The notes beneath the pieces are model-generated. The model worked only from the letters and a program-made list of their open reading frames with translations. It ran no database searches and was not told where the DNA came from. Positions 1 to 11,234 of a stretch of DNA of 11,234 bases are shown here, piece after piece (position 1 is the first letter of the stretch; each line of letters begins with the position of its first letter). A program made the position numbers and the translations under genes. Location of the stretch: UHGV virus genome UHGV-0140033; one strand, given 5' to 3'. The stretch comes from a virus.

Positions 1-145
1 TCATCCATATCACCACGTCAAAGGGTGACAGCAGGCTCATAAGACGCCCCAGCGTGGCCAGAGTGCGTTCACTGCGTATTTTCATGAAAGGAGATCACTC
101 AATAACTTCCATCGAGATCGGGTAATAACATTTGAACAGATCGCT

Positions 146-211
146 GAATAACATCGATGGAGATCACTTTTGACTCATTTTGTTATTCAGTGATCTCCAT
201 CAATGTTATTG
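146..211. repeat. Near-perfect 22-bp inverted repeat pair (146-167 aataacatcgatggagatcact / 190-211 agtgatctccatcaatgttatt) with a third GGAGATCACT copy at 89-100
   Basis: Read directly from sequence; one mismatch over 22 bp, 22-bp spacer. Candidate transposase-binding terminal repeats or an operator. Confidence 0.5.
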
Positions 212-265
212 GAACTTCACAGGTGTGTTGATCTGTATCTTTTGCCATTCCGGTAAAGGATACCT

Positions 266-1359
266 ATGCCAACAGTTCCAATTTCTATGAGAAAACTTAA
301 AGAAATTCTTAGGCTTAAATACGGTGTTGGACTCAGCCATCGACAAATTGGTCGTAGTCTTGCAATCTCCCCTTCCGTTGTATCCAGATATGCTAATCGG
401 GCGGCTCAACTTGGCATAAAGCAGTGGCCCTTACCTACAGGATGGGATGATACAAAACTAAAACATGCGTTCCTTCAGACCCAGGTTAAGATGAAGAAGC
501 ACTCTCTGCCTGACTGGGCTACAGTACACCGGGAACTGCGTAATAAATGCGTGACGCTGCAGCTACTCTGGGAAGAATACTGTGAGCGTAATCCAGGCGG
601 TTTTTACAGTTATAACCATTACTGCCGGATGTACCGTGAATGGCTCAAAACCACTTCACCATCAATGCGTCAGGTACATAAAGCTGGCGAAAAACTTTTC
701 GTTGATTACTGTGGACCTACCGTTGGCGTTACCGACCCTGAGACCGGAGAAATAAGAACTGCTCAGGTCATCGTAGCTGTTCTCGGGGCATCAAGTTACA
801 CATGGGCAGAGGCCACCTGGTCTCAGCAGCTTGAAGACTGGGTGATGAGTCATGTTCGCTGCTTCCAGTGGTTGGGTGGCGTTCCTGAACTTGTTGTTCC
901 GGACAATCTGAAAAGCGCCACATCCAGGGCATGTAAGTATGATCCTGACGTTAACCCTACCTACCAGCAGATGCTTGAGCATTATAATGTCGCAGTTTTG
1001 CCTGCGCGGCCACGTAAACCGAAAGATAAAGCCAAAGCTGAAGTTGGCGTTCAGGTTGTTGAACGCTGGATCATGGCCCGAATCAGGCATGAGATCTTCT
1101 ACAGCCTTGCATCGCTTAATCAGCGCATTCGGGAGTTGCTGGAAAGACTGAATAACAAAATAATGCAGAAGTTGGGTTATTCACGTGCAGAACTCTTCAT
1201 CCAGCTTGATAAACCCGCACTGAAGCCTCTTCCTGAAGCCAGTTACAGTTACACCCTGGTGAAGAAAGTCAGAGTTCATGCCGATTACCACGTGGAAATC
1301 GACAAACATTACTACTCGGTTCCATGTTCGCTGTTAGGCCAGCAACTGGAAGCATGGAT
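266..1359 (+). pseudogene. istA: IS21-family transposase IstA, C-terminally truncated by IS629 insertion
   Basis: ATG at 266 with AAAGGA SD. N-terminal HTH region; DDE-type motifs (FVDYCGPT, VVPDNLKS, KPKDKAKAE); HYNV..PARPRKPKDKAKAE resembles the IS21 IstA HYNF.PRACRPRRARTKGKVE block from memory. The 380-aa track ORF runs on into the IS629 left inverted repeat, so the last ~16 codons are not istA. Confidence 0.75.
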
Positions 1360-1385
1360 TGAACCGCCCCGGAAATCCTGGAGAC
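1360..1385. repeat. IS629-like left terminal inverted repeat
   Basis: tgaaccgccccggaaatcctggagac; reverse complement closely matches 2644-2669. Confidence 0.75.
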
Positions 1386-1413
1386 TAAACTTCCTGAGAA
1401 AGAGGTAAACAGG

Positions 1414-1740
1414 ATGACTAAAAATACTCGTTTTTCCCCCGAAGTCCGTCAGCGGGCGATTCGAATGGTTCTGGAAAGTCAGAGCGAATATGACTCACAA
1501 TGGGCGACAATTTGTTCCATTGCTCCAAAGATTGGCTGTACGCCGGAGACTCTGCGTGTCTGGGTTCGCCAGCATGAGCGGGATACCGGGGGCGGTGATG
1601 GAGGGCTCACCACCGCTGAACGTCAGCGTCTGAAAGAGCTGGAACGTGAAAATCGTGAACTGCGCCGCAGTAACGATATCCTTCGCCAGGCTTCCGCTTA
1701 TTTTGCGAAGGCGGAGTTCGACCGCCTCTGGAAAAAATGA
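1414..1740 (+). CDS. IS3-family transposase OrfA (HTH/leucine-zipper DNA-binding subunit), 108 aa
   Basis: ATG at 1414 with GAGG SD; [19 protein letters not shown]... is typical IS3-family OrfA with a C-terminal coiled-coil ([13 protein letters not shown]); stop overlaps orfB start. Confidence 0.9.
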
Positions 1741-2627
1741 TGCCACTGCTGGATAAGCTGCGTGAGCAGTACGGGGTCGGACCGGTATGCAGCGAACTGC
1801 ATATTGCCCCGTCAACGTATTACCATTGTCAGCAACAGCGACATCATCCGGATAAACGCAGTGCCCGTGCGCAGCACGACGACTGGCTGAAGAGAGAGAT
1901 ACAGCGCGTATACGATGAAAATCATCAGGTGTACGGTGTGCGTAAAGTCTGGCGTCAGTTGTTACGGGAAGGAATCAGGGTGGCCAGATGTACAGTGGCA
2001 CGTCTCATGGCGGTTATGGGACTTGCCGGTGTTCTCCGGGGTAAAAAGGTCCGTACGACCATCAGCCGGAAAGCCGTTGCCGCAGGCGACCGCGTAAACC
2101 GTCAGTTCGTGGCAGAACGACCTGACCAGCTGTGGGTGGCTGATTTTACTTACGTCAGCACATGGCGGGGCTTCGTCTATGTGGCGTTCATCATTGATGT
2201 GTTTGCCGGATACATCGTGGGGTGGCGGGTCTCATCGTCCATGGAAACGACATTCGTGCTGGATGCACTGGAGCAGGCGTTATGGGCCCGTCGACCGTCC
2301 GGCACGGTCCATCACAGTGATAAAGGTTCTCAGTATGTATCGCTGGCCTACACACAGCGGCTTAAGGAAGCCGGATTACTGGCATCAACAGGAAGTACAG
2401 GCGACTCGTATGACAACGCGATGGCGGAGAGCATCAATGGTCTTTACAAAGCGGAGGTAATACACCGTAAGAGCTGGAAAAACCGTGCAGAAGTGGAACT
2501 GGCCACACTCACGTGGGTGGACTGGTATAACAATCGACGATTGCTGGAAAGGCTGGGCCATACTCCTCCGGCAGAAGCAGAAAAAGCTTATTATGCTTCC
2601 ATCGGAAACGATGATCTGGCAGCCTGA
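1737..2627 (+). CDS. IS3-family transposase OrfB (DDE catalytic subunit), 296 aa; probably expressed as an OrfAB fusion by -1 frameshifting
   Basis: DDE motifs including the IS3-family signature [18 protein letters not shown]; A6 run at 1732-1737 in the orfA/orfB overlap (ATGA). Confidence 0.9.
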
Positions 2628-2643
2628 GTTCACAGATAAAACA

Positions 2644-2669
2644 CTCTCCAGGAAACCCGGGGCGGTTCA
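2644..2669. repeat. IS629-like right terminal inverted repeat
   Basis: ctctccaggaaacccggggcggttca; imperfect inverse of 1360-1385. Confidence 0.75.
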
Positions 2670-3096
2670 GATAATCGGCGTGGCAGATGACATATTTTTT
2701 ATCTTTGCTCACCAGTTCGATGATTAACGGAAGTTCATCTGCTTTATGGGCAAGAGCTTTAGCCAGAATTTCTTTGTCGTAATCGAGATTAAAGAACCAG
2801 CCACCGCCATTAAGCAGCCAGTGATTGACGTTTCCACGCTCTGATAAGCCATCAATCATCATTTGCTCATGGTTTCCACGTACAGCTCTGAACCAGGGGA
2901 ATGTGATTAATTCCAGGCATTCGACGTTCTCTGTACCGCGATCGACCAAATCGCCAACCGAGATAAGCAGGTCTTTTTTGGTGTCGAATCCTATCGTCTC
3001 CAGTTTTTTCATCAGGTTCGTGTAGCATCCGTGCAGATCGCCAACTACCCAAATATTTCGGTATTTGCTGCCATCAATTCTTTCGTAATAGCGCAT
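2670..3096 (-). pseudogene. Lambda-type Ser/Thr protein phosphatase (ninI/orf221 homolog), 3' end truncated by IS629 insertion (first ~143 codons remain)
   Basis: [25 protein letters not shown]...GDLVDRG...GNHE metallophosphatase motifs; near-identical to lambda PPase as I recall it up to ...KYVICHADY, where the reading frame enters the IS right end. True start is ATG at 3096, not the track start at 3171. Confidence 0.8.
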
Positions 3097-3280
3097 CTCT
3101 TTCACTCCATCCGCGATGAACCATGAGAACGTCGTTGACGATGGCGTGCATTTTCCCGTCTTTATCATCAACGTATTTTCTGACCGTACCGCGACTACAT
3201 TTCAGTCTGCGTGCTACTTCTGTCTGGTTTCCGTATGCTTCAACGAGCATGTCTGGAATGGTTTTTACTGAGAACGTCAT
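3074..3280 (-). CDS. ninH: NinH-like protein, 68 aa
   Basis: Position between ninG and phosphatase as in lambda; start overlaps ninG stop (ATGA); sequence matches lambda NinH by recollection. Confidence 0.8.
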
Positions 3281-3888
3281 GCGGCCTCACTTCTGCTATT
3301 TCGCAGGTCTTTGAGTTTCTGTTGGTACTCTGCCTTGATCGCCTTGCACTCTTCGACAGTCCAGCGATGGCGGTTATGGTTTGATTCGATTTCGTCTACT
3401 GCTTCCTGCCCGATGCGATTAATCAGTTCGACGCGATACGGAACGAGATTTCCGCTTTTATGCTGGTTGCACACCACGCATTGCTTGTGAATATTGCGTT
3501 CATCAAATCGGAGTTGAGGTGCCGCAGCAGTTGTCCGGTAATGTCCGGCATCCCACTGAGCAGACGTGAGCGTTCCGCACGAGATACATGGTAAGTCGCG
3601 GTCTCTTTCTCTGATGAAGGCGTTTACGGCTTGTTGGGCTTGTTTAATCCAGTAACTGCGGGGCTTTAAGGCGAGTTTTCGAATCTTAAGTTTATCTTTC
3701 TGTTTCTGCTCCTCTCGTCGTCGTTTCTTCTCTGCTGCTTTTTCCGCTTTTTCGCGTTCTTTGCTTCGTCGTTCGAGTGCTATCTTGGTTCCACACTCTG
3801 GAGAGCACCACCACTGATTAGCGAATGCAGGGTGAAACCATTCCCGGCATTCATCGTTTTTACATCGTCTTCGCGCTGGTTTAGCCAT
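3277..3888 (-). CDS. ninG: NinG (Rap-like recombination-associated) protein, 203 aa
   Basis: Cys-rich N-terminus ([10 protein letters not shown]...CSPEC), basic KR-rich linker, C-terminal CISC...CVVCNQHK; length and position match lambda NinG. Confidence 0.85.
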
Positions 3889-4157
3889 TATGGTTCGCTC
3901 CAGTAATTCTCAATTGCAGCAGCCATTCTCTGCATCCACTCTGCCAGCTTTAACGCGGCTTCTCTTTCAGAACCACATTTAGGGAAATCCTTCATTTCCA
4001 TGCTGGCCTTATATGTTCTGAATGCCAGGTCTCCGGTAATAACCAGCTCCTGATCAAGCACAGAGCGTTTATTCCGGTGTTGAACGTAATAGACAGATTC
4101 AGTCCGCATTTCTTCTCTGTCTTTTTTGAAGGAAATAAGCTCAGAGAAATCACTCAT
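3888..4157 (-). CDS. Hypothetical nin-region protein, 89 aa (no lambda counterpart at this position)
   Basis: ATG at 4157 with GAGGAAG SD; stop overlaps ninG start; tightly packed in the operon. No family recognised. Confidence 0.55.
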
Positions 4158-4362
4158 CGTCTTCTTCCTCGTACATTGAGCTATTCGGATCGCTCATCAG
4201 TTCTGCGCAGCAGTGCTCACATACGTGAACTTCCAGCACATGCAGCTTCTGACCGCAGTTAGCGCACGTTAAAGCTCGCTCGACGCTTTCTTGTTCGTAA
4301 CTTCGATTTTGGTCAATCACCTTGTTTTCCTCGCACGATGTCTTAGCCACCGGATATCCCAC
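4150..4362 (-). CDS. ninF: NinF-like zinc-ribbon protein (~58-70 aa; start uncertain, track start is GTG)
   Basis: [34 protein letters not shown] matches lambda NinF by recollection; CxxC...CxxCC motif. No in-frame ATG upstream, so the start may be GTG at 4362 or 4350. Confidence 0.65.
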
Positions 4363-4499
4363 AGGTGAGCCGTGTAGTTGAAGGTTTTTACGTCAGATTC
4401 TTTTGGGATTGGCTTGCGTTTATTTCTGGAGCGTTTCGTTGGAAGGTATTTGCAGTTTTCGCAGATGATGTCGGTGATACTTCGTCGCTGTCGTCTCAT
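4317..4499 (-). CDS. ninE: NinE-like protein, 60 aa
   Basis: [20 protein letters not shown]... matches lambda NinE by recollection; ATG at 4499 overlaps the upstream stop (ATGA). The 90-aa track ORF is an upstream extension. Confidence 0.75.
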
Positions 4500-5023
4500 G
4501 CTGCCCTCCTGACGCCCTGCCCGATCGCCATCAATGCCGCTTTGGATACGGTAGTAAACATCCGTCGAGGACTGATGAACGGTCGCCAAATCAGCAGCAT
4601 GGAGCCTTTGCTGTTTCCCTTCTTCTCCAGCCCTGTCGATGGTTCGATAAAATTAATCCGTCCATCAGTGATAATACGAACTTCGTCAACACTCTCCAGA
4701 GCCTTGCTGAACCATCCGACAGACATATCCTCTGGCACAAGCATCACTACCGTCTGTCGCTGTTGTATGCACTGCTCAGCGGCTTTTTCCACCCACGGCC
4801 TGATATTGCTGTACGGTGGGTTATTCCAGATTGCACCGTGGCTTATCCACTCAGAATTGAGTGCGTCGTCGGCCTCAGTTAGCCAGTGAGCGCACAGAGC
4901 GTTTTTGTCGCTCGCTGCCGAATCCAGCCAGAATCCAAACTCAATATCCAGTGCATCAAAAAGCCAAAGCGGCGTTTGCCAGCAGTCCTTGTCGTGTGCT
5001 GGCGTATTTGATTTGATAGTCAT
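4496..5023 (-). CDS. Phage-type DNA N6-adenine methyltransferase (Dam-like); alternative start ATG at 5050
   Basis: NPPY catalytic motif (WNNPPYSN); phage Dam family. ATG at 5023 overlaps ninB stop (ATGA) and is preceded by AAGGGAAGG; ATG at 5050 is also in frame. Confidence 0.75.
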
Positions 5024-5466
5024 GCAGCCTTCCCTTTTCGTTGTGACCATTCATACTCTCTCCGGGAGTCATCACTCCATCGCACGTTGCGCTCTGAGCC
5101 GAACCAGAACATGATTTCGATAAGCTCAGTCATGTTGGCCTTTCGCATTTTGCTGGTACGCACGCCAAGCATGACAACGCCACCGTCGATACCAGGCGCA
5201 CTTCTTTGCTCCATTTTTTTGGTCTTAAGCCACAGGGCAGTGAACAGATCTTTCCAGTCCTCCGGCGCAAGTCTCTCTCCATGCCAAAGCACCTGACGCG
5301 ATACGTCCTGCAATAACGCCCACATAAGGCGGTTTTGAGGATTGCTCCGCTTTGGTTCTTTAATGTGGACTTCGTGAGGTGACTTGTCGTCGATCGGAAG
5401 TGAGAGTATTGCGTCTATGGCGTTGTTTCTGATTGCTTCGTTGCGAAGCATGTATATTTGCTTCAT
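5020..5466 (-). CDS. ninB: NinB (Orf-family recombination mediator), ~148 aa
   Basis: DVSRQV.WHG...W...FTA...WSD..R.EYEW...G.AA conserved blocks shared with lambda NinB; ATG at 5466 with GAGGTG SD (track start at 5472 is GTG). Confidence 0.85.
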   Translation of the reverse strand: MKQIYMLRNEAIRNNAIDAILSLPIDDKSPHEVHIKEPKRSNPQNRLMWALLQDVSRQVLWHGERLAPEDWKDLFTALWLKTKKMEQRSAPGIDGGVVMLGVRTSKMRKANMTELIEIMFWFGSERNVRWSDDSRREYEWSQRKGKAA

Positions 5467-5473
5467 TGTCACC

Positions 5474-5680
5474 TCAACTCACAAAACGCCACGCCATTTT
5501 TGCTACAGCGACAGGCGCAACACCGATAATCACCCACAGGAGAATGCTACCGAAAAGCACACCCACCAGGTCTTTACCTTCGCCTACCAACCGGACAAAA
5601 CAGCCAGCAACCACAATGAACGTCGCCACCATCCACAGAGCACCGAGAAGCCTCAATGCAGAGAAAATCAACTCAACCAC
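5474..5680 (-). CDS. Small hydrophobic protein (68 aa, 2 predicted TM helices) in the ren/ninA slot between replication genes and ninB
   Basis: GTG start preceded by GGGGGAGAG SD; stop 2 nt before ninB start. Composition is strongly hydrophobic, so chance ORF is not excluded. Confidence 0.4.
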   Translation of the reverse strand: MVELIFSALRLLGALWMVATFIVVAGCFVRLVGEGKDLVGVLFGSILLWVIIGVAPVAVAKMAWRFVS

Positions 5681-5695
5681 GATTTACTCTCCCCC

Positions 5696-5727
5696 AAATA
5701 AAAAGGCCTGCGATTACCAGCAGGCCT
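5696..5727 (-). terminator. Intrinsic terminator on the minus strand (tR2-like position, between helicase gene and nin region)
   Basis: Perfect 8-bp GC-rich stem (5704-5711 aggcctgc / 5720-5727 gcaggcct), 8-nt loop, followed on the minus strand by TTTTATTT. Confidence 0.55.
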
Positions 5728-5752
5728 GTTACAAGCTCAGTGATGTAGATGG

Positions 5753-7129
5753 TCATACGTCCGCCCCTTGTGCATATCGTCTGCCACGCGCAGCAGGCGC
5801 ATTTGATGCTGTGCAAATCTGTCTGGCTTCATCCTGGTCACATGCAACAAAGTGTCCGTTACAGAATCGCTGGTAAACCGTACCAAGCGAGCCAAAACGG
5901 TTTTTCGTCACGATGATTTCAGCAAATGGCGCGGCGCTACTGTTCTCGTCATATACCGCTTCCCGATAGAGCATGATGATTGAGTCTGCGTCCTGTTCAA
6001 TGCTTCCTGAATCACGCAAATCTGCGTTTGTCGGGCGTTTGTTTGGTCGCTTCTCAACATCGCGCGAAAGCTGACTCAGGGAGATAACAGGCGTTTTTAG
6101 GTCTTTCGCCATCGCCTTCAGGCTTCCGGAGATGTGAGCAATTGCAAGGTCGTTGCGGTCTGCTTTCGGCTTCTCAATCAGGCCAAGATAATCCGCCATG
6201 ATGAGTGACAGGTTTGGGTTTTCCTGTTTGTGCCGTTCTGCGATTGAGCGTATTTCTTCGACCGATAACCGCGAGGCATCGACTACCCATACATCCAAAT
6301 CTGCAAGCTGACTCATGCCGTTAGCAACACGTGCCCAGCCCTCGTCATCCATCGATGCAGGATTTCGCAGCACGCTAACCGACATCCTCCCGGCGTTGGC
6401 AATACTTCGCTCTGCAATCTGCAATGCGCTCATTTCCATTGAGAAAATCAATACTCCGCGCCGGACGTCAGAACCAGGAATAACGCGGCTTGCAACGCCT
6501 TCGGCAATCTTCAGCGCCAGTTCGGTTTTCCCCATACCAGGACGAGCAGCGATTATCACCAGGTCTTCCGCGTTCATCCCTCCGGTGATGGCATCAAGTT
6601 CTTCGATTCCGGTCTTCAGGGTATCGGACTCTTCTCCGTTCCTCAGACGCCTGTCAAGCGTGTCAGTGTAGTCAGTAATGATTTCCCCTAACCGTACAGG
6701 TTTTACCTCGTCACGGGGCTTTCTGATGGCTGAAAGACGCTTTACAAGTTCATCCATCGCCTGACTCGATGCGTCGATGGTTCCGCTCTGAATTGGTTCA
6801 CGCATTTCATCCATGATTTCCAGCACCAGACGGCGGTGATAGTTATCCGCGACCATTCCGGCATATCCCTTCAGGTTTGCGGCACTCGGGCAGTTTTTGC
6901 TGGTCATCAGGATTGACGTGAAATGCTCCTCTCCGCACGCCTCGGCAACCATCAGCGCGTCGATTAGGTTTCTGTTTCTCGCCTGCTTGCGGATAACCTC
7001 GAAGGCTTTCCGGTAGAGCGGAATTGAAAACGCTTCCGGCTCAAGCGTTGCCAGAACGTCACTGGCAGTTGGTGTTAATCCACCAATCAGCAGACCGCCG
7101 ATAACGCTCGCTTCGATATCCTGTCTCAT
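5753..7129 (-). CDS. Replicative DNA helicase, DnaB family (P22 gene 12-like), 458 aa
   Basis: DnaB N-terminal domain; Walker [17 protein letters not shown]; RecA-like C-terminal domain; start overlaps upstream stop (ATGA). Confidence 0.9.
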
Positions 7130-7947
7130 GCAATCCCCCTGTCTGCAAACTTCCCTTCACGAACTCCCGTTAACGAATCTTCTCTCAGCAGGTAATCAAA
7201 ATCGGCCGTCCAGCCCGTGTCGTTGTCTCCGAAGTAAAACGGCTTGGCCTGATGCACAAACGCCCTGACATACGCTCTGAAACCGTCCACGTTTGGCGTT
7301 TTCAGTTGCGGGATGATTTTCTTCAGGCGGCGTTTGCGTTTCTCGTTGACCGCAACAGCGTGTGGAAGTCTGTCACCGACTTCGGTGTTGTAGGCGTTCA
7401 GGAAGGATTCGTAGTCGATTCGTTCTGCCTTGCGACGTTCAGGTTTAACCTGCCCATCGCCGCCCCCGTTAGGGGGTAAGGGGGTATTTGTATTTATTGT
7501 CTTTTGTATATTGTCTTTTGTGTTTAGCTGACTTGGCTTATACCCATTAGCCGACTTGGCTAATGTTTTATTAGCTGTTTTGGCTAATGTTAAGCTGTCC
7601 TGGCTAATCCACTGCGAAACCACCTTGTTCACTCCGATTTTCACGCCATCAGCAATGAGGAATTTACGCTCAATAAGCTGGCGCTTGGCAGCGCAAACAT
7701 GAGTGTGATGAATACCTGTCATGGCTGCTATCTGCGTGTTTGTGAGTCGATCCATCGGCTTATTGAATCCGTATGTCTTGCGCATGATAGCGAGCATCAC
7801 CTTCAACTGCCGGACGGTTAAATCAGCCATCAGCAGACTGTCGGTAATCTCGTTAGCAACGCGCATGAAACCATCTTCGGTGTCTGCCACGCGATGCTCC
7901 ACGACCTCCAGTTGAGGCCTGTAATCAGCTAACTTAACGACGCCCAT
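7126..7947 (-). CDS. O: Replication initiation protein O (lambda O N-terminal domain / P22 gene 18-like), 273 aa; contains the origin
   Basis: ADLT.RQ.KV.LAI.RKTYG.NKPMDR motif shared with lambda O N-terminus; strong AGGAG SD; iterons lie inside the coding sequence as in lambdoid O genes. Confidence 0.85.
7484..7522. other. AT-rich DNA-unwinding region of ori, adjacent to the iterons
   Basis: gtatttgtatttattgtcttttgtatattgtcttttgtg with tandem attgtcttttgt repeats, flanked by a G-rich palindrome cccccgttaggggg (7465-7478). Confidence 0.65.
7524..7607. repeat. Phage replication origin iterons: four ~17-bp repeats (TTAGCTGACTTGGCTTA / TTAGCCGACTTGGCTAA / TTAGCTGTTTTGGCTAA / TAAGCTGTCCTGGCTAA) at 20-24 bp spacing
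   Basis: Read directly from sequence; each has internal dyad symmetry (TTAGC...GCTAA); located mid-gene in O. Confidence 0.8.
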
Positions 7948-8095
7948 GTTTCACTCCTGCTTTGGCTAGTCTGTAAACACCAACAAGGCGCTCTGCGAAC
8001 GCCCTGTTATTTGCTGCGGCTACCACTAATCCCTCAGGTGAATCAGGGTGTCGAATCTCTTCTTTTTCCTGGTATTTCTTACGACGTTTTGTCAT
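7934..8095 (-). CDS. Small basic hypothetical protein (53 aa) between cII and O
   Basis: ATG at 8095 with AGGAG SD; track start at 8140 is TTG. Lys/Arg-rich N-terminus. No family recognised. Confidence 0.4.
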   Translation of the reverse strand: MTKRRKKYQEKEEIRHPDSPEGLVVAAANNRAFAERLVGVYRLAKAGVKHGRR

Positions 8096-8129
8096 AATTA
8101 CTCCTGTGGATTGATCCAGTCTTTCTACA

Positions 8130-8408
8130 TCAGGCCTCAAAACTGTTGCAGCAGTCTTGAGGCTTTTCTTTTGTCAGCACCATGGCTACTTTCTTTGCCA
8201 GCTCTGCTAATTCCTCGTCTTCAACACCCCACTCCAGCACAGCCAGAAGCATGGCCATCTTTGGGATAAAGCTGTCTTTCCATCGCGAAATTTGCGATTC
8301 ATTAATCCCTAATGCATCAGCAACCTTTCGCTGACCACGTACAGCAATTCGATTCAGGATGTTGCTTGTAATTGCATTCGCTTTCTTGCGAGTACTTGTA
8401 AGTTGCAT
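8130..8408 (-). CDS. cII: CII-like transcriptional activator, 92 aa
   Basis: SQISRWK..FIPK.AMLLAVLEWGV matches the lambda CII core; upstream AAGGAAATACTTACATATG is identical to the lambda cII translation-initiation region as I recall it. The 121-aa track ORF is an upstream extension. Confidence 0.85.
   Translation of the reverse strand: MQLTSTRKKANAITSNILNRIAVRGQRKVADALGINESQISRWKDSFIPKMAMLLAVLEWGVEDEELAELAKKVAMVLTKEKPQDCCNSFEA
8386..8399 (+). promoter_or_regulatory. Candidate CII-binding site / pRE -35 region (TTGC-N6-TTGT)
   Basis: TTGCgagtacTTGT within the first cII codons on the opposite strand, resembling the lambda TTGC-N6-TTGC CII site; imperfect second half-site. Confidence 0.3.
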
Positions 8409-8465
8409 ATGTAAGTATTTCCTTAACAAATAAGAAGTTATGCGCATCAAATTATGCGCGTTGTA

Positions 8466-8510
8466 TTCCCGCATTTCGGCGGGAATGATGACCATGACTG
8501 TTAAAGAGCG
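8466..8510 (-). promoter_or_regulatory. nutR-like antitermination site: boxA (CGCTCTTTA, 8510-8502) and boxB hairpin (8485-8466)
   Basis: Minus strand reads CGCTCTTTAACAG immediately after the cro stop, then 13 nt, then a 7-bp stem TTCCCGC/GCGGGAA with purine-rich loop CGAAAT; same arrangement as lambda nutR. Confidence 0.55.
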
Positions 8511-8516
8511 GTGTTA

Positions 8517-8711
8517 CTATTTGTTTTTCTTGTTGCTTGGGAAAGGACGAACTTCCTCTCCAATCACACTGCCATCAGGCTTTACCGTAACCATGATGTT
8601 ACGGCCTGCCAGAATGGCCTTGCTGATAGCGCACTGGATTACACCAAAGTCACTGGCTGCTTTAGCCTGTCCATGGATTTTGGCGTAATCGGCAAGTGTC
8701 ATTCGAATCAT
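8517..8711 (-). CDS. cro: Cro-like repressor, 64 aa
   Basis: [15 protein letters not shown]...AGR.I...DGSV..EEV.PFPSNKK aligns with lambda Cro (about half identical by eye); ATG at 8711 with GGAG SD. The track start at 8717 is GTG. Confidence 0.85.
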
Positions 8712-8741
8712 ATGCACTCTCCGTTATTAACCATGAACAAA

Positions 8742-8806
8742 GAATACTACAGGTATTCAAAGCAATCAATACTCAGGGTATTTTTAGTTTAAGTACCTTA
8801 GCTATT
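8742..8806. promoter_or_regulatory. OR operator region: three operator sites (AATAC-N5-GTATT at 8743-8757 and 8768-8782; degenerate AGTAC-N5-CTATT at 8792-8806), containing the divergent pR/pRM promoters
   Basis: Palindromes read directly; centre-to-centre spacing 24-25 bp as in lambda OR1-3. Possible pR -10 TAGTAT (minus, 8749-8744) and pRM -10 TAGAAT (8806-8811). Confidence 0.7.
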
Positions 8807-8817
8807 AGAATTAAGCT

Positions 8818-9502
8818 ATGGAAAATAAAAAATCACTGACGACAGAACAGCTCGAAGACGCTAAGCGGCTTAAGGCTTTGTATGAGTCAAAAAAGAAAGA
8901 ATTGGGAATAACCCAATACTCAATCGCTGATGAACTGGGTATCACCCAAGGAGCGGTAGGGCATTATCTTAATGGCAGAAACGCGTTTGTTGCAAGTCTC
9001 AATTGCTGATTTTTGCCAGTCAATTGCTGCCAAGGTTGCAGAACAGGCAGAAAGCCTTAAGAGCGATGCCAACGTAAGGTATGCAGGGGAATACAGAGCA
9101 GGAAAGAGGTATCCGGTGTTAAGCAGTATCCAGGCTGGCTCGTGGTGTGAAGCATGCGAACCATACACCATTAAAGACATAGATGTTTGGCTTGAGTCTG
9201 ACGCGCATATTCAAGGTAATGCGTTCTGGCTTAAAGTGGAAGGTGATTCAATGACGGCACCGGTTGGGTTAAGCATTCCAGAGGGAACATTCGTTCTTTT
9301 CGATACCGGAAGGGAGGCGATCAACGGCAGCTTGGTCATAGCAAAACTTTCTGACTCTAACGAAGCAACATTCAAGAAGCTGATAATCGACGGCGGAAAT
9401 AAATACCTCAAGGGACTTAATCCTGCATGGCCTCTCGTGCCAATCAATGGAAACTGCAAGATTATAGGCGTTGCAATTGAGACAAAACTAAGGCTGGTTT
9501 GA
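8818..9502 (+). pseudogene. cI: cI-type repressor disrupted by a +1 frameshift: N-terminal HTH domain 8818-9009, C-terminal S24 LexA-like peptidase domain continues in another frame to 9502
   Basis: N-terminal [33 protein letters not shown] resembles the lambda cI N-terminus; C-terminal frame has AG..WLKVEGDSMTAP...ATFKKL S24 motifs. Frame changes between 8960 and 9009, most simply at the TTT run 8986-8988. Confidence 0.75.
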
Positions 9503-9519
9503 TCACGCAAGGGGCGATT

Positions 9520-9888
9520 ATGGTTGGAACCGCTATAGCAAGCTTTTTTGGGATGTTGGCAATCTCGACAATTTACGGCTTAGCGCATGCTTTTATTGCG
9601 AAATCTCTATCAGAAAAAATAAGCCAGGCTTGGGCGCATAGATCAGCTCGTTTCATGATTCTGGTGATCATAGCAATACAAGGGATATCTGCATTTATCC
9701 TCTATGGATCAAGCTTATACCTATTGTATCAAGGCGCGACATTTACGCCTTACACCAGTGATTACGGAACTCTATACGATGGTAGTGAAGACATCACTGT
9801 GGCTTGGATCGTCTTTGGTTTATCTATGGCCGTGTCTGTTGTAGCAGACATCATTAAGGTAATTCTCGTCTTAACCTTCGCTGACTAA
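9520..9888 (+). CDS. Uncharacterised integral membrane protein (122 aa, ~3 TM helices) cotranscribed downstream of cI in the rex slot
   Basis: ATG at 9520, 17 nt after the cI stop, with G-rich SD (track start 9499 is TTG); three long hydrophobic segments; no similarity to lambda RexB recognised. Confidence 0.65.
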   Translation: MVGTAIASFFGMLAISTIYGLAHAFIAKSLSEKISQAWAHRSARFMILVIIAIQGISAFILYGSSLYLLYQGATFTPYTSDYGTLYDGSEDITVAWIVFGLSMAVSVVADIIKVILVLTFAD

Positions 9889-9942
9889 CCTATAATCCCG
9901 GCAGCAATAGCTATCGGGATCCACTTCACATATCCCGCATAA

Positions 9943-10143
9943 AAAGCACTGAACAAGCAGACACCGAAACAAATAGAAGTCATGCGCTGTCTGGCGCAAG
10001 GCATGCCGAACAAAATGATCGCCTACAAAATGGGCATCAGCACATCAACCGTCAAAGTCCATCTGAACCGTATTTACATGCGTTTGAACATCACCAACCG
10101 ATTGCAGGCGTTGTTGTGGCTGAACGAACACAACATGTTCTGA
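9943..10143 (+). pseudogene. 3' fragment of a LuxR/NarL(FixJ)-family response regulator gene: C-terminal HTH domain only
   Basis: LNKQTPKQIEVMRCLAQGMPNKMIAYKMGISTSTVKVHLNRIYMRLNITNRLQALLW has the LuxR-type HTH signature and resembles the NarL C-terminus. In-frame TAA at 9940-9942 sits where the receiver domain should be. Confidence 0.55.
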
Positions 10144-10346
10144 CGCGTTTCGAAAAACCGTTCGACGTCGAATGGCTGTTCGATTCAGCCGTCGCGGACG
10201 AAGCGGAACAATACGTTTTCCACCCGAAACAAACATTGCGCAGAAATCCGGACGGATCGCTGACCGTCAAATTCCGCGCGGGCGGACGGCTGGAAATGGA
10301 TTGGCATCTGTACACTTGGGGAAAGCACGTCAAAGTCGTCAAAGCG
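10143..10346 (+). other. Possible gene fragment resembling the C-terminal (WCX-like) region of a WYL-domain transcriptional regulator; no start and no stop of its own
   Basis: Frame translation ...FHPKQTLRRNPDGSLTVKFRAGGRLEMDWHLYTWGKHVKVV resembles WYL-regulator C-termini (HP.Q...DGS...EL.W.L.WG..V.V). It runs directly into the antisense of rho. Confidence 0.25.
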
Positions 10347-11234
10347 TTACGAATTCATCGCTTCGAAAAAGTCGTGATTGTTTTTCGACTGTTTCAGCTT
10401 TTCCATCAGGAACTCCATCGCGTCGGCGGGTCCCATCGGCATCAGCACGCGGCGCAACACCCACATTTTAGGCAAAGTATTTTTATCCACCAACAATTCC
10501 TCATTACGCGTACCCGATTTTGTAATGTCGATAGCGGGGAAAATACGTTTATCAGAAACTTTGCGATCCAAAATAATTTCGCTGTTGCCTGTGCCTTTGA
10601 ACTCTTCGAAAATCACTTCGTCCATTCGAGAGCCCGTTTCAACCAAAGCCGTTGCGATAATTGTCAGCGAACCGCCCTCCTCTACATTACGAGCAGCACC
10701 AAAAAAGCGTTTAGGCTTTTGCAGAGCGTTGGCATCCACACCACCTGTTAACACTTTACCCGATGAAGGAATAACGGTGTTATAAGCACGAGCTAAACGC
10801 GTAATACTGTCCAGCAAAATCACAACGTCTTGCTTGTGTTCGACAAGGCGCTTAGCCTTTTCAATCACCATTTCAGCGACTTGAATATGGCGGCTTGCGG
10901 GCTCGTCAAACGTTGAAGAGATAACCTCACCTTGAATCGAGCGTTTCATATCCGTCACTTCCTCGGGGCGCTCATCAATCAACAAAACAATCAAGTGAAT
11001 CTCTGGGTGATTAGCTGTAATCGCGTGAGCGATGTTTTTCATCATGACGGTTTTACCTGTTCGTGGAGGCGCAACAATCATTCCGCGTTGACCTTTACCT
11101 TGCGGGCAAATCAAATCGATAATGCGGTCGGTTAAATCTTTGCCTTTTTCACCGCTTGGCAGCTCGTAATCCATCTTCAGCTTTTCATCTGGATACGTTG
11201 GCGTTAAGTTATCAAAGTTGACCCGATAGCGCAA
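10347..11234 (-). CDS. rho: Transcription termination factor Rho, C-terminal ~295 codons (5' end beyond the window)
   Basis: Walker [34 protein letters not shown], RecA-like ATPase domain ending ...[13 protein letters not shown] at 10347-10349. Clearly divergent from E. coli Rho as I recall it (roughly three-quarters identical by eye). Confidence 0.9.

What the first reader, a model, noticed from the sequence alone, without database searches (positions are those of the whole stretch)
10347..11234. Partial rho gene is clearly not Enterobacterial-type, unlike the rest of the window
Rho is highly conserved among Enterobacteria, yet this C-terminal domain differs from E. coli Rho at many positions (for example [50 protein letters not shown] versus [50 protein letters not shown]). 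Codon style in 9940-11234 also looks different. Either the host is not an E. coli relative and carries a strikingly E. coli-like IS/prophage segment, or the contig is chimeric.
Basis: partly seen in the sequence, partly recalled or inferred. Interest (0 to 1): 0.5.

Follow-up and report, generated by a model that had tools for sequence, protein, structure and literature searches.

The report
Chimeric contig: E. coli prophage plus alphaproteobacterial rho
The odd rho gene is real but belongs to uncultured gut Alphaproteobacteria, and it sits next to E. coli prophage DNA because this low-coverage metagenome contig splices pieces of three different genomes, so it is almost certainly an artefact and not biology.

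Summary
Bases 10347-11234 (minus strand) encode the C-terminal 295 residues of Rho. The fragment is 68% identical in protein and about 70% in DNA to E. coli Rho. Bases 1-9963 are about 99% identical to E. coli IS elements and a lambdoid prophage.

The window is a whole metagenome contig, ENA ERZ1745232 NODE_604_length_11234_cov_5.5, and it has three sources:
- E. coli, up to 9963.
- A gut alphaproteobacterial lineage "A", 9964-10469. It is 506/506 identical to a Hadza-study gut scaffold. It holds a 5'-cut small LuxR-type gene, a WYL/WCX remnant and the last 33 Rho codons.
- A second alphaproteobacterial lineage "B", about 10446-11234. It is 787/789 identical to another gut contig, and its Rho body is 100% identical to a 422-aa Rho.

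The A/B switch lies in a 24-38-nt stretch that both lineages share, the signature of a k-mer mis-join. The E. coli/A switch has only 6 nt of microhomology (CCGAAA). A second assembly (SAMN03418254) also contains it, so reads must span it. I read that as a library chimera. A real recent recombination event is not excluded (about 8%).

Interest is low.

The parts
266..1359 (+). ISEc12 (IS21-family) istA, cut at its 3' end by the next IS
   Evidence: ORF. Annotated as an ISEc12 family transposase in the E. coli hits. This junction with IS1203 is not contiguous in any complete E. coli genome.
1360..2669 (+). IS1203/IS629-like IS3-family element (orfA 1414-1740, orfB 1737-2627). Its inverted repeats start at 1360 and end at 2669, and GAT flanks both sides.
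   Evidence: Sequence. E. coli annotation.
2670..9963 (.). E. coli lambdoid prophage early region: truncated Ser/Thr phosphatase, NinH, NinG, Dam methylase, NinB, DnaB-like helicase, replication protein O, cII, cro, a cI/LexA-family repressor with a 32-bp frameshifting deletion near 8988, and a 122/129-aa membrane ORF
   Evidence: Pfam labels on the source contig. The cI deletion.
9964..9969 (.). Crossover zone between E. coli and alpha-A: CCGAAA is shared by both parents. It sits within an imperfect match of 14 of 16 nt (9960-9975).
   Evidence: Three-way alignment. The last E. coli-specific base is 9963 and the first alpha-specific base is 9970. The chance of 6 nt or more of microhomology at a random blunt join is 0.0013.
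9970..10143 (+). 5'-truncated gene for a small stand-alone LuxR/GerE-type HTH protein. It is 65 aa in its natural hosts. The first 5-6 codons and the promoter are missing, leaving a residual ORF at 9982-10143.
   Evidence: Pfam GerE at 7e-18. The 65-aa homologues P0121 and P0122. 100% DNA identity to L093.
10151..10346 (+). Remnant of the C-terminal WCX domain of a WYL-family regulator, with no start and no stop codon. The deletions that made it are natural polymorphisms of the alpha-A lineage.
   Evidence: Pfam WCX at 1e-6. Full-length 317/318-aa WYL+WCX genes in L092, L096, L097 and L100, and deleted variants in L093-L095, L098 and L099.
10347..10469 (-). The rho 3' end of alpha-A type, with its stop codon at 10347-10349. 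The last 33 residues of the protein are identical to the tails of the 417-aa Rho class (P0083, P0106, P0120).
   Evidence: There are 506/506 identities to L093 over 9964-10469.
10446..10469 (.). Crossover zone between alpha-A and alpha-B inside rho. The 24 nt CACGCGGCGCAACACCCACATTTT are identical in L093 and L106. The shared stretch could reach 38 nt (10432-10469), depending on the true alpha-B parent.
   Evidence: The second assembly, L108, ends at 10465.
10470..11234 (-). The rho body of alpha-B type (ATPase domain), running off the contig end
   Evidence: 100% amino-acid identity to P0001 over residues 1-262. 99.7% DNA identity to L106, 93% to L002-L007, and only about 75-80% to alpha-A loci.

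Best explanation
The window is one whole low-coverage metagenome contig (ENA ERZ1745232 NODE_604, k-mer coverage 5.5). It joins DNA from three organisms that live together in the human gut. They are an E. coli strain (IS elements plus the early region of a lambdoid prophage) and two related uncultured Alphaproteobacteria. The rho fragment is a genuine alphaproteobacterial rho, and that is why it differs from E. coli Rho. The fragment is itself spliced. Its last 33 codons, together with the downstream WCX remnant and the small LuxR-type gene, come from lineage A. The rest comes from lineage B. The A/B splice lies in a 24-38-nt stretch identical in both lineages, where a de Bruijn-graph assembler can step from one genome to the other. 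This step is inferred. The E. coli/A splice has only 6 nt of microhomology, so reads must span it. The most likely source is a chimeric library molecule, made by fragment ligation or template switching, that bridged two low-coverage contig ends. This step is also inferred. Nothing here operates as a biological system. The LuxR-type gene has lost its start and promoter, the WCX piece is a remnant, and the Rho is a hybrid seen nowhere else.
For: The window is identical to contig L107, ERZ1745232 NODE_604_length_11234_cov_5.526702.

The left part is about 99% identical to E. coli up to base 9975. E. coli strain PK6 continues past that point with different prophage DNA.

Bases 9964-10469 are 506/506 identical to L093, a gut scaffold from RAMP15-1_SAMN03418253. 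L093 continues upstream into the intact 65-aa GerE gene and a LysR gene, and its own rho body is only about 75-80% identical to the window.

Bases 10446-11234 are 787/789 identical to L106 (ERZ1023658 NODE_49). The Rho of L106 ends ...IDKLRVSKNNQDFFAAMNSK, unlike the window. In the L002-L007 loci of this lineage (which encode P0001), rho is followed by a 79-aa ORF and mnmE.

The window's Rho body is 100% identical to P0001, and its 33-residue tail is 100% identical to P0083/P0106/P0120, whose bodies are only 86% identical. None of the 120 best homologues, and no member of the P0001 cluster, combines the two. The hybrid product is not on record.

Nearest named relatives are 'MAG: Alphaproteobacteria bacterium' and 'Acetobacter sp.' MAGs. 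All 80 genome loci kept by the scan are best matches from Alphaproteobacteria or unclassified MAGs, at 81% identity or less.

The right end is absent from E. coli genomes, plasmids and phages, apart from about 70% identity to their own rho genes.

The other assembler's scaffold, L108, stops at 10465, inside the shared stretch, and starts inside the IS. That is what one expects at graph branches.

From the literature: chimeric contigs arise where related species share k-mers (PMC7299287). In vitro chimeras typically prime on 2-21 nt of complementarity (PMC1855051).
Against: The E. coli/A junction has only 6 nt of exact microhomology, too short for any k-mer mis-join. It also appears in a second assembly made with a different pipeline (L108, SAMN03418254), which differs from the window by only 6 SNPs. 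So sequencing reads span the junction. Both assemblers followed this path and not the natural continuation of either parent.

I could not establish whether the two assemblies used the same reads. I could not see coverage or read pairs. I could not confirm the library protocol.

Six nt of microhomology has a chance of 0.0013 at a random blunt join. It therefore points to a pairing-dependent process, which could be in vitro or in vivo.
Confidence: 0.85

Rival explanations
1. The E. coli/alpha-A junction is real. A gut E. coli strain, or its defective lambdoid prophage, very recently acquired a piece of alphaproteobacterial chromosome by microhomology-mediated illegitimate recombination just downstream of the immunity region. 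Only the A/B switch inside rho is an assembly error.
For: The junction is present in two assemblies from different pipelines. Six nt of microhomology within a 14-of-16 match fits illegitimate recombination. The same rare prophage variant, with the 32-bp cI deletion, is seen only on these two contigs. That suggests one particular strain in which the junction could be fixed. Neither assembler branched at the junction.
Against: The alpha-A piece is 100% identical to the donor lineage over 506 nt, so the event would have to be extremely recent and yet dominant in the sample. The acquired DNA has no mobile-element features. It starts inside a gene, and it contains only a truncated gene, a remnant and a rho tail. 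The junction is absent from 5,426 E. coli genomes, plasmids, phages, IMG/VR and JGI metagenome contigs. At 5.5x coverage, one chimeric fragment with overlapping mates or PCR duplicates could satisfy both assemblers. The two assemblies may derive from the same reads.
Confidence: 0.08
2. The host is not an E. coli relative. An alphaproteobacterium carries an E. coli-like prophage and IS block next to its rho.
For: Rho is a single-copy housekeeping gene, so taken at face value it would mark the host chromosome.
Against: The block is 98-99% identical in DNA to E. coli prophage, ISEc12 and IS1203 over 10 kb. Many natural alpha-A and alpha-B contigs, up to 630 kb, show other neighbours of rho and no such insertion. 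The junction cuts the GerE gene. The rho is a hybrid of two lineages.
Confidence: 0.02
3. The hybrid rho is natural. An alpha-B-like strain in this host replaced its rho 3' end and downstream region with alpha-A DNA by homologous recombination, so that 9964-11234 is one real organism. Only the E. coli join is artefactual.
For: The crossover lies in a conserved stretch where homologous recombination is also possible. The two lineages appear to co-occur in gut samples, since loci of both kinds come from one run of consecutively numbered ENA assemblies (ERZ268584xx-ERZ268591xx).
Against: No such hybrid exists among the 120 best Rho homologues or in the P0001 cluster. Gene order around rho differs between the two lineages, so a second homologous crossover is not obvious. 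The other assembler stopped exactly at this point, as expected at a graph branch between two co-present genomes.
Confidence: 0.1

Closest known systems
Inter-genome chimeric contigs in short-read metagenome assemblies (review PMC7299287)
   Same: Adjacent segments have near-identical best matches in different taxa. One breakpoint lies in a conserved gene, within a 24-38-nt stretch shared by two related species. The contig has low coverage (5.5x). A second assembler breaks at the same point.
   Different: The E. coli/alpha-A breakpoint shares only 6 nt, so it cannot come from k-mer sharing. It needs a chimeric read or a real molecule, and a second assembly reproduces it.
In vitro chimeric DNA molecules formed during library preparation or amplification (Lasken and Stockwell 2007, PMC1855051: priming on 2-21 nt of complementarity in over 70% of junctions)
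   Same: The junction has short microhomology (6 nt exact, 14 of 16 overall) between unrelated templates, with no biological signal at the breakpoint.
   Different: That paper describes MDA chimeras, which are mostly intramolecular inversions. I have no evidence that MDA was used here, and this join is intermolecular and colinear.
Transcription termination factor Rho of Alphaproteobacteria (uncultured gut lineages annotated 'Alphaproteobacteria bacterium' or 'Acetobacter sp.' MAGs)
   Same: The body is 100% identical in protein to the 422-aa P0001. The tail is 100% identical to the 417-aa class. The fragment scores above the TIGR00767 and NF006886 cutoffs.
   Different: No natural protein on record combines this body with this tail. 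The N-terminal RNA-binding domain lies outside the contig.
Escherichia coli Rho (PDB 1PV4/1PVO and others)
   Same: It belongs to the same family and has the same ATPase-domain architecture. The alignment covers residues 128-416.
   Different: Identity is only 68% in protein and about 70% in DNA. This is not the enterobacterial orthologue.
Foreign cargo genes (morons) in lambdoid prophages
   Same: Foreign DNA sits next to the immunity region of a lambdoid prophage.
   Different: There is no intact gene with its own promoter and terminator. The first foreign gene has lost its 5' end. The foreign DNA is a housekeeping locus from another class at 100% identity to its source.

Membership tests
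Transcription termination factor Rho (TIGR00767 / NF006886) | Score above the curated family cutoff | tested here: met
   The 295-aa fragment alone scores 527.2 bits against a cutoff of 509.45, and 529.7 bits against a cutoff of 315.
Transcription termination factor Rho (TIGR00767 / NF006886) | RecA-type ATPase domain with a Walker A motif, and alignment to solved Rho structures | tested here: met
   The motif PPRTGKT is present in the translation. The fragment aligns to E. coli Rho residues 128-416 at E = 4e-131. Full-length homologues carry PF00006.
Transcription termination factor Rho (TIGR00767 / NF006886) | N-terminal Rho_N and RNA-binding (OB-fold) domains | not testable with these tools
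   The contig ends at 11234, inside the gene. The closest full-length homologues have PF07498 and PF07497.
   Identity is 68% in protein. DNA identity is about 70% to the rho of all 5,426 E. coli genomes, and none reaches 80%.
Rho of uncultured gut Alphaproteobacteria | Near-identity to rho of contigs or MAGs assigned to Alphaproteobacteria | tested here: met
   The body is 100% identical in protein to P0001, whose cluster member P0124 is named 'MAG: Alphaproteobacteria bacterium'. DNA identity to L106 is 99.7%. The tail and downstream region are 100% identical in DNA to L093.
Inter-genome chimeric contig | Adjacent segments with near-identical best matches in different organisms | tested here: met
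   E. coli at 99%, alpha-A at 506/506 and alpha-B at 787/789.
Inter-genome chimeric contig | Each parental sequence continues differently across the breakpoint in its own genome | tested here: met
   E. coli PK6 continues with prophage DNA. L093-L100 continue into the GerE start and LysR on one side and into an alpha-A rho body on the other. L106 and L002 have their own rho tail, and L002-L007 carry a 79-aa ORF and mnmE downstream.
Inter-genome chimeric contig | Breakpoint inside a sequence stretch shared by the parents and at least as long as an assembler k-mer | tested here: inconclusive
   The rho breakpoint shares 24-38 nt, which is compatible with k = 21-33. The E. coli/alpha-A breakpoint shares only 6 nt, which is not compatible, so that join needs a chimeric read.
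Inter-genome chimeric contig | Read-level signature: a coverage step, no or few non-duplicate spanning pairs, and reads supporting the parental continuations | not testable with these tools
   No reads are available. Only the contig's mean k-mer coverage of 5.5, taken from its name, is known.
Genuine horizontally acquired cargo in a lambdoid prophage | Intact gene or genes with their own expression signals, or mobile-element or att boundaries, recurring in independent genomes | tested here: not met
   The GerE gene lacks its first 5-6 codons and its promoter. The WCX piece is a remnant. The junction is absent from E. coli genomes, plasmids, phages, IMG/VR and JGI contigs. It is present only on L107 and L108.

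The most novel reading that the evidence does not exclude
The E. coli/alpha-A junction is a real molecule. A gut E. coli strain in a person sampled in the Hadza study (SRP056480) carries, downstream of the immunity region of a defective lambdoid prophage, a very recently captured fragment of alphaproteobacterial chromosome. The fragment was joined through 6 nt of microhomology. This would be inter-class illegitimate recombination caught almost in the act.
Probability: 0.08. Interest if true: 0.55.

Novelty: not a real feature. Interest (0 to 1): 0.1.

Why it matters
As biology it matters little. The rho is an ordinary alphaproteobacterial rho, and the juxtaposition is most likely an artefact.

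As quality control it is useful. A public contig (ERZ1745232 NODE_604) and a second public scaffold (RAMP15-1_SAMN03418254 scaffold_977) both carry an E. coli/alphaproteobacterium join. That join could be misread as a prophage with foreign cargo, as host-range evidence, or as horizontal transfer of a housekeeping gene. It also yields a hybrid Rho protein that exists in no organism.

If the junction proved real, it would be a rare direct observation of very recent inter-class DNA capture in the human gut.

Tried and rejected
- Exact look-up of the partial Rho product and of the 53-aa GerE ORF in the gene-position index found nothing on record. The look-up of the 63-aa cI fragment is what found the source contig.
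- Exact searches for the junction in IMG/VR and in JGI metagenome contigs found no match.
It returned only relatives at 81% identity or less, all best matches from Alphaproteobacteria or unclassified MAGs, so it named the class but not the species.
- I first read the LuxR-type piece as the C-terminus of a NarL-like response regulator. I rejected this because its closest homologues are stand-alone 65-aa proteins.
- I first suspected that the two deletions around the WCX remnant were further chimeric joins. I rejected this because L093 has exactly the same architecture, and other alpha-A contigs show intermediate forms.
- Tetranucleotide and GC profiles do not discriminate at this length.
- The literature search did not recover the library protocol of the source study.
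- A natural phage or plasmid carrier of the right end was looked for and not found.

Full report
**What is at the coordinates**

The minus-strand ORF 10347..11234 has its stop codon at 10347-10349 and runs off the right end of the window. It encodes the C-terminal 295 residues of a transcription termination factor Rho. NCBIfam gives NF006886 529.7 bits (cutoff 315) and TIGR00767 527.2 bits (cutoff 509.45), over profile positions 128-414.

Against solved E. coli Rho chains it aligns over residues 128-416 at E = 4e-131. Identity is 197/289, or 68%. In DNA, all 5,426 complete E. coli genomes match this rho at about 70% identity and none above 80%.

**The rest of the window**

Bases 1-9975 are E. 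coli DNA. Bases 8000-9975 match more than 100 E. coli chromosomes at about 99%, and bases 1360-9975 match O145:H28 genomes at 98%.

The content, from left to right, is:
- ISEc12 (IS21-family) istA, cut at 1359.
- A complete IS1203/IS629-like IS3 element, 1360-2669.
- The early region of a lambdoid prophage: phosphatase remnant, NinH, NinG, Dam, NinB, DnaB-like helicase, O, cII, cro, cI and a small membrane ORF.

No E. coli genome matches beyond 9975.

**What the right end is**

The closest Rho proteins are unnamed metagenomic proteins at 97% identity. Related proteins at 87-94% are named 'MAG: Alphaproteobacteria bacterium' or 'Acetobacter sp.'. All 80 genome loci kept by a scan of GTDB species representatives are best matches from Alphaproteobacteria or unclassified MAGs.

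The piece between the E. coli DNA and rho is not a response-regulator fragment, as I first thought. It holds two things:
- The gene for a small stand-alone 65-aa LuxR/GerE-type protein (Pfam GerE 7e-18; homologues P0121 and P0122).
- A remnant of the WCX domain of a WYL-family regulator (Pfam WCX 1e-6).

In natural contigs of one gut alphaproteobacterial lineage, which I call alpha-A, the order is LysR, then the GerE 65-aa gene, then a WYL/WCX gene of 317-318 aa, then a convergent rho (L092, L096, L097, L100). The WYL gene is polymorphic in that lineage. Several contigs carry a deletion of about 793 bp. One contig, L093, also lacks the WCX tail and the terminator. The window has exactly the L093 architecture. 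It is identical to L093 at 506 of 506 positions over 9964-10469. L093 is scaffold_135 of RAMP15-1_SAMN03418253.

**The rho fragment is itself a hybrid**

From 10470 rightwards the window diverges from L093 to about 75-80% identity. There it matches a second lineage, alpha-B. Identity to L002-L007 is 93%. Identity to L106 (ERZ1023658 NODE_49) is 787/789 over 10446-11234.

At the protein level:
- Residues 1-262 are 100% identical to P0001, of the 422-aa class.
- The last 33 residues are 100% identical to the tails of the 417-aa class (P0083, P0106, P0120), whose bodies are only 86% identical to the window.
- None of the 120 best homologues, and no member of the P0001 90% cluster, combines the two. 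The hybrid product is not on record.

The natural alpha-B rho ends ...IDKLR[LV]SKNNQDFFAAMNSK. In the L002-L007 loci it is followed by a 79-aa ORF and mnmE. The crossover lies in CACGCGGCGCAACACCCACATTTT (10446-10469), which is identical in L093 and L106. The shared stretch could extend to 38 nt (10432-10469), depending on the true alpha-B parent.

**The E. coli/alpha-A junction**

A three-way alignment compares three sequences:
- Window: ...AAGCAGACACCGAAACAAATAGAAGTC...
- E. coli: ...AAGCAGACACCGAAAAAAATAAATATC...
- L093: ...CATCTGACCCCGAAACAAATAGAAGTC...

The last E. coli-specific base is 9963 and the first alpha-specific base is 9970. The crossover is therefore within CCGAAA (9964-9969), inside a 14-of-16 imperfect match. 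The chance of 6 nt or more of microhomology at a random blunt join is 0.0013.

The junction removes the first 5-6 codons and the promoter of the GerE gene. On the E. coli side it falls in prophage intergenic DNA. There is no att site, inverted repeat or IS end at the junction.

**Provenance**

The 63-aa product created by a 32-bp deletion in cI exists on only two contigs of the whole gene-position index.

- L107 is the window itself: ENA ERZ1745232 NODE_604_length_11234_cov_5.526702. It is a SPAdes-style contig with a mean k-mer coverage of 5.5.
- L108 is ENA ERZ28624925 RAMP15-1_SAMN03418254_METAG-scaffold_977, 7,851 nt long. It matches window 2616-10465 with 6 SNPs and a 10-N scaffold gap.

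L108 contains both the cI deletion and the E. coli/alpha-A junction. It starts inside the right end of IS1203. It ends at 10465, inside the stretch shared by alpha-A and alpha-B.

**Interpretation**

The A/B join has every mark of a graph mis-join. It sits in a shared k-mer-length stretch inside a conserved gene of two co-resident relatives. The other assembler stopped there. The resulting protein exists nowhere else. This kind of error is well described (PMC7299287).

The E. coli/A join cannot be a k-mer mis-join. Reads must span it, and two pipelines followed it. Two readings remain: a chimeric library molecule or a real molecule.

I favour the library chimera, at about 85% for the overall artefact reading, for these reasons:
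- The foreign piece is 100% identical to its donor lineage.
- It carries no mobile-element features.
- It begins inside a gene.
- It consists of a truncated gene, a remnant and a gene tail.
- Coverage is about 5x. At that depth, contig ends are frequent, and one fragment with overlapping mates or PCR duplicates can bridge two ends.
- The junction is absent from 5,426 E. coli genomes, from plasmids, phages and IMG/VR, and from JGI metagenome contigs.

Short complementary stretches at in vitro chimera junctions are documented, at 2-21 nt in MDA (PMC1855051). I have no evidence on which protocol was used here.

Against my reading, both assemblers ran through the junction without branching. I could not show that the two assemblies share reads. 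A real, very recent capture of alphaproteobacterial DNA by an E. coli prophage therefore stays open at about 8%.

Codon usage of the right-end genes does differ from the left part. The distance is 1.27, against 0.81 +/- 0.12 for random subsets. TTG makes up 50% of Leu codons on the right and 10% on the left, CAA makes up 78% of Gln codons against 30%, and there are no AGA or AGG codons. One left-part gene reaches 1.21, however, and a housekeeping gene set against phage genes is not a clean comparison.

GC (0.48 on the right against 0.44-0.54 on the left) and tetranucleotide correlation (0.64, within the left-part range of 0.53-0.79) do not separate the parts. Similarity searches decide the case, not composition.

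**Verdict**

The unusual juxtaposition is not a biological feature. The rho itself is an ordinary rho of uncultured gut Alphaproteobacteria. Interest is low. The only open point worth a check is read-level support for the E. coli/alpha-A junction.

Noticed in passing
window 8818-9502 (deletion near 8988): The prophage cI/LexA-family repressor carries a 32-bp frameshifting deletion relative to E. coli PK6 and all other top E. coli hits. The deletion splits it into a 63-aa HTH ORF and a 176-aa peptidase S24 ORF. The 63-aa product occurs on only two contigs in the whole collection: the window itself and L108.
   Followed up: partly
window 1357-1362 and 2667-2672: The IS1203/IS629-like element (1360-2669) has unrelated flanks: ISEc12 istA on the left and a truncated phage Ser/Thr phosphatase on the right. 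Both flanks abut the IS with GAT. Neither junction is contiguous in any of 5,426 complete E. coli genomes. The second assembly (L108) starts at 2616, inside the IS. The left 2.6 kb may therefore be another repeat-mediated join or an IS-mediated rearrangement.
   Followed up: partly
L092-L100 (alpha-A loci); window 10144-10346: In the alpha-A gut lineage, the WYL/WCX regulator gene between the 65-aa GerE gene and rho is polymorphic across samples. Three forms occur: full length; a deletion of about 793 bp flanked by a 10-nt repeat; and a further deletion of about 80-95 bp that also removes the shared terminator hairpin between the WYL gene and rho. This is apparent gene decay in progress.
   Followed up: partly
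L088-L100; window 9982-10143: A small stand-alone LuxR/GerE-type HTH protein (65 aa, sometimes called as 53 aa) is conserved next to a divergent LysR-family gene in several gut alphaproteobacterial lineages. It has no receiver or ligand domain. Its function is unknown.
   Followed up: no
window 10116-10751 (+): A 211-aa ORF arises because the WCX remnant has lost its stop codon and reads on antisense through the rho 3' end. The gene caller called it on L108 as a 116-aa partial product, but it is not a real gene.
   Followed up: yes
protein cluster of P0001: P0128 is a 53-aa protein with a Cas2-like sequence. It is listed as a member of the 90% cluster of the Rho protein P0001, which looks like a clustering oddity in the protein collection.
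   Followed up: no
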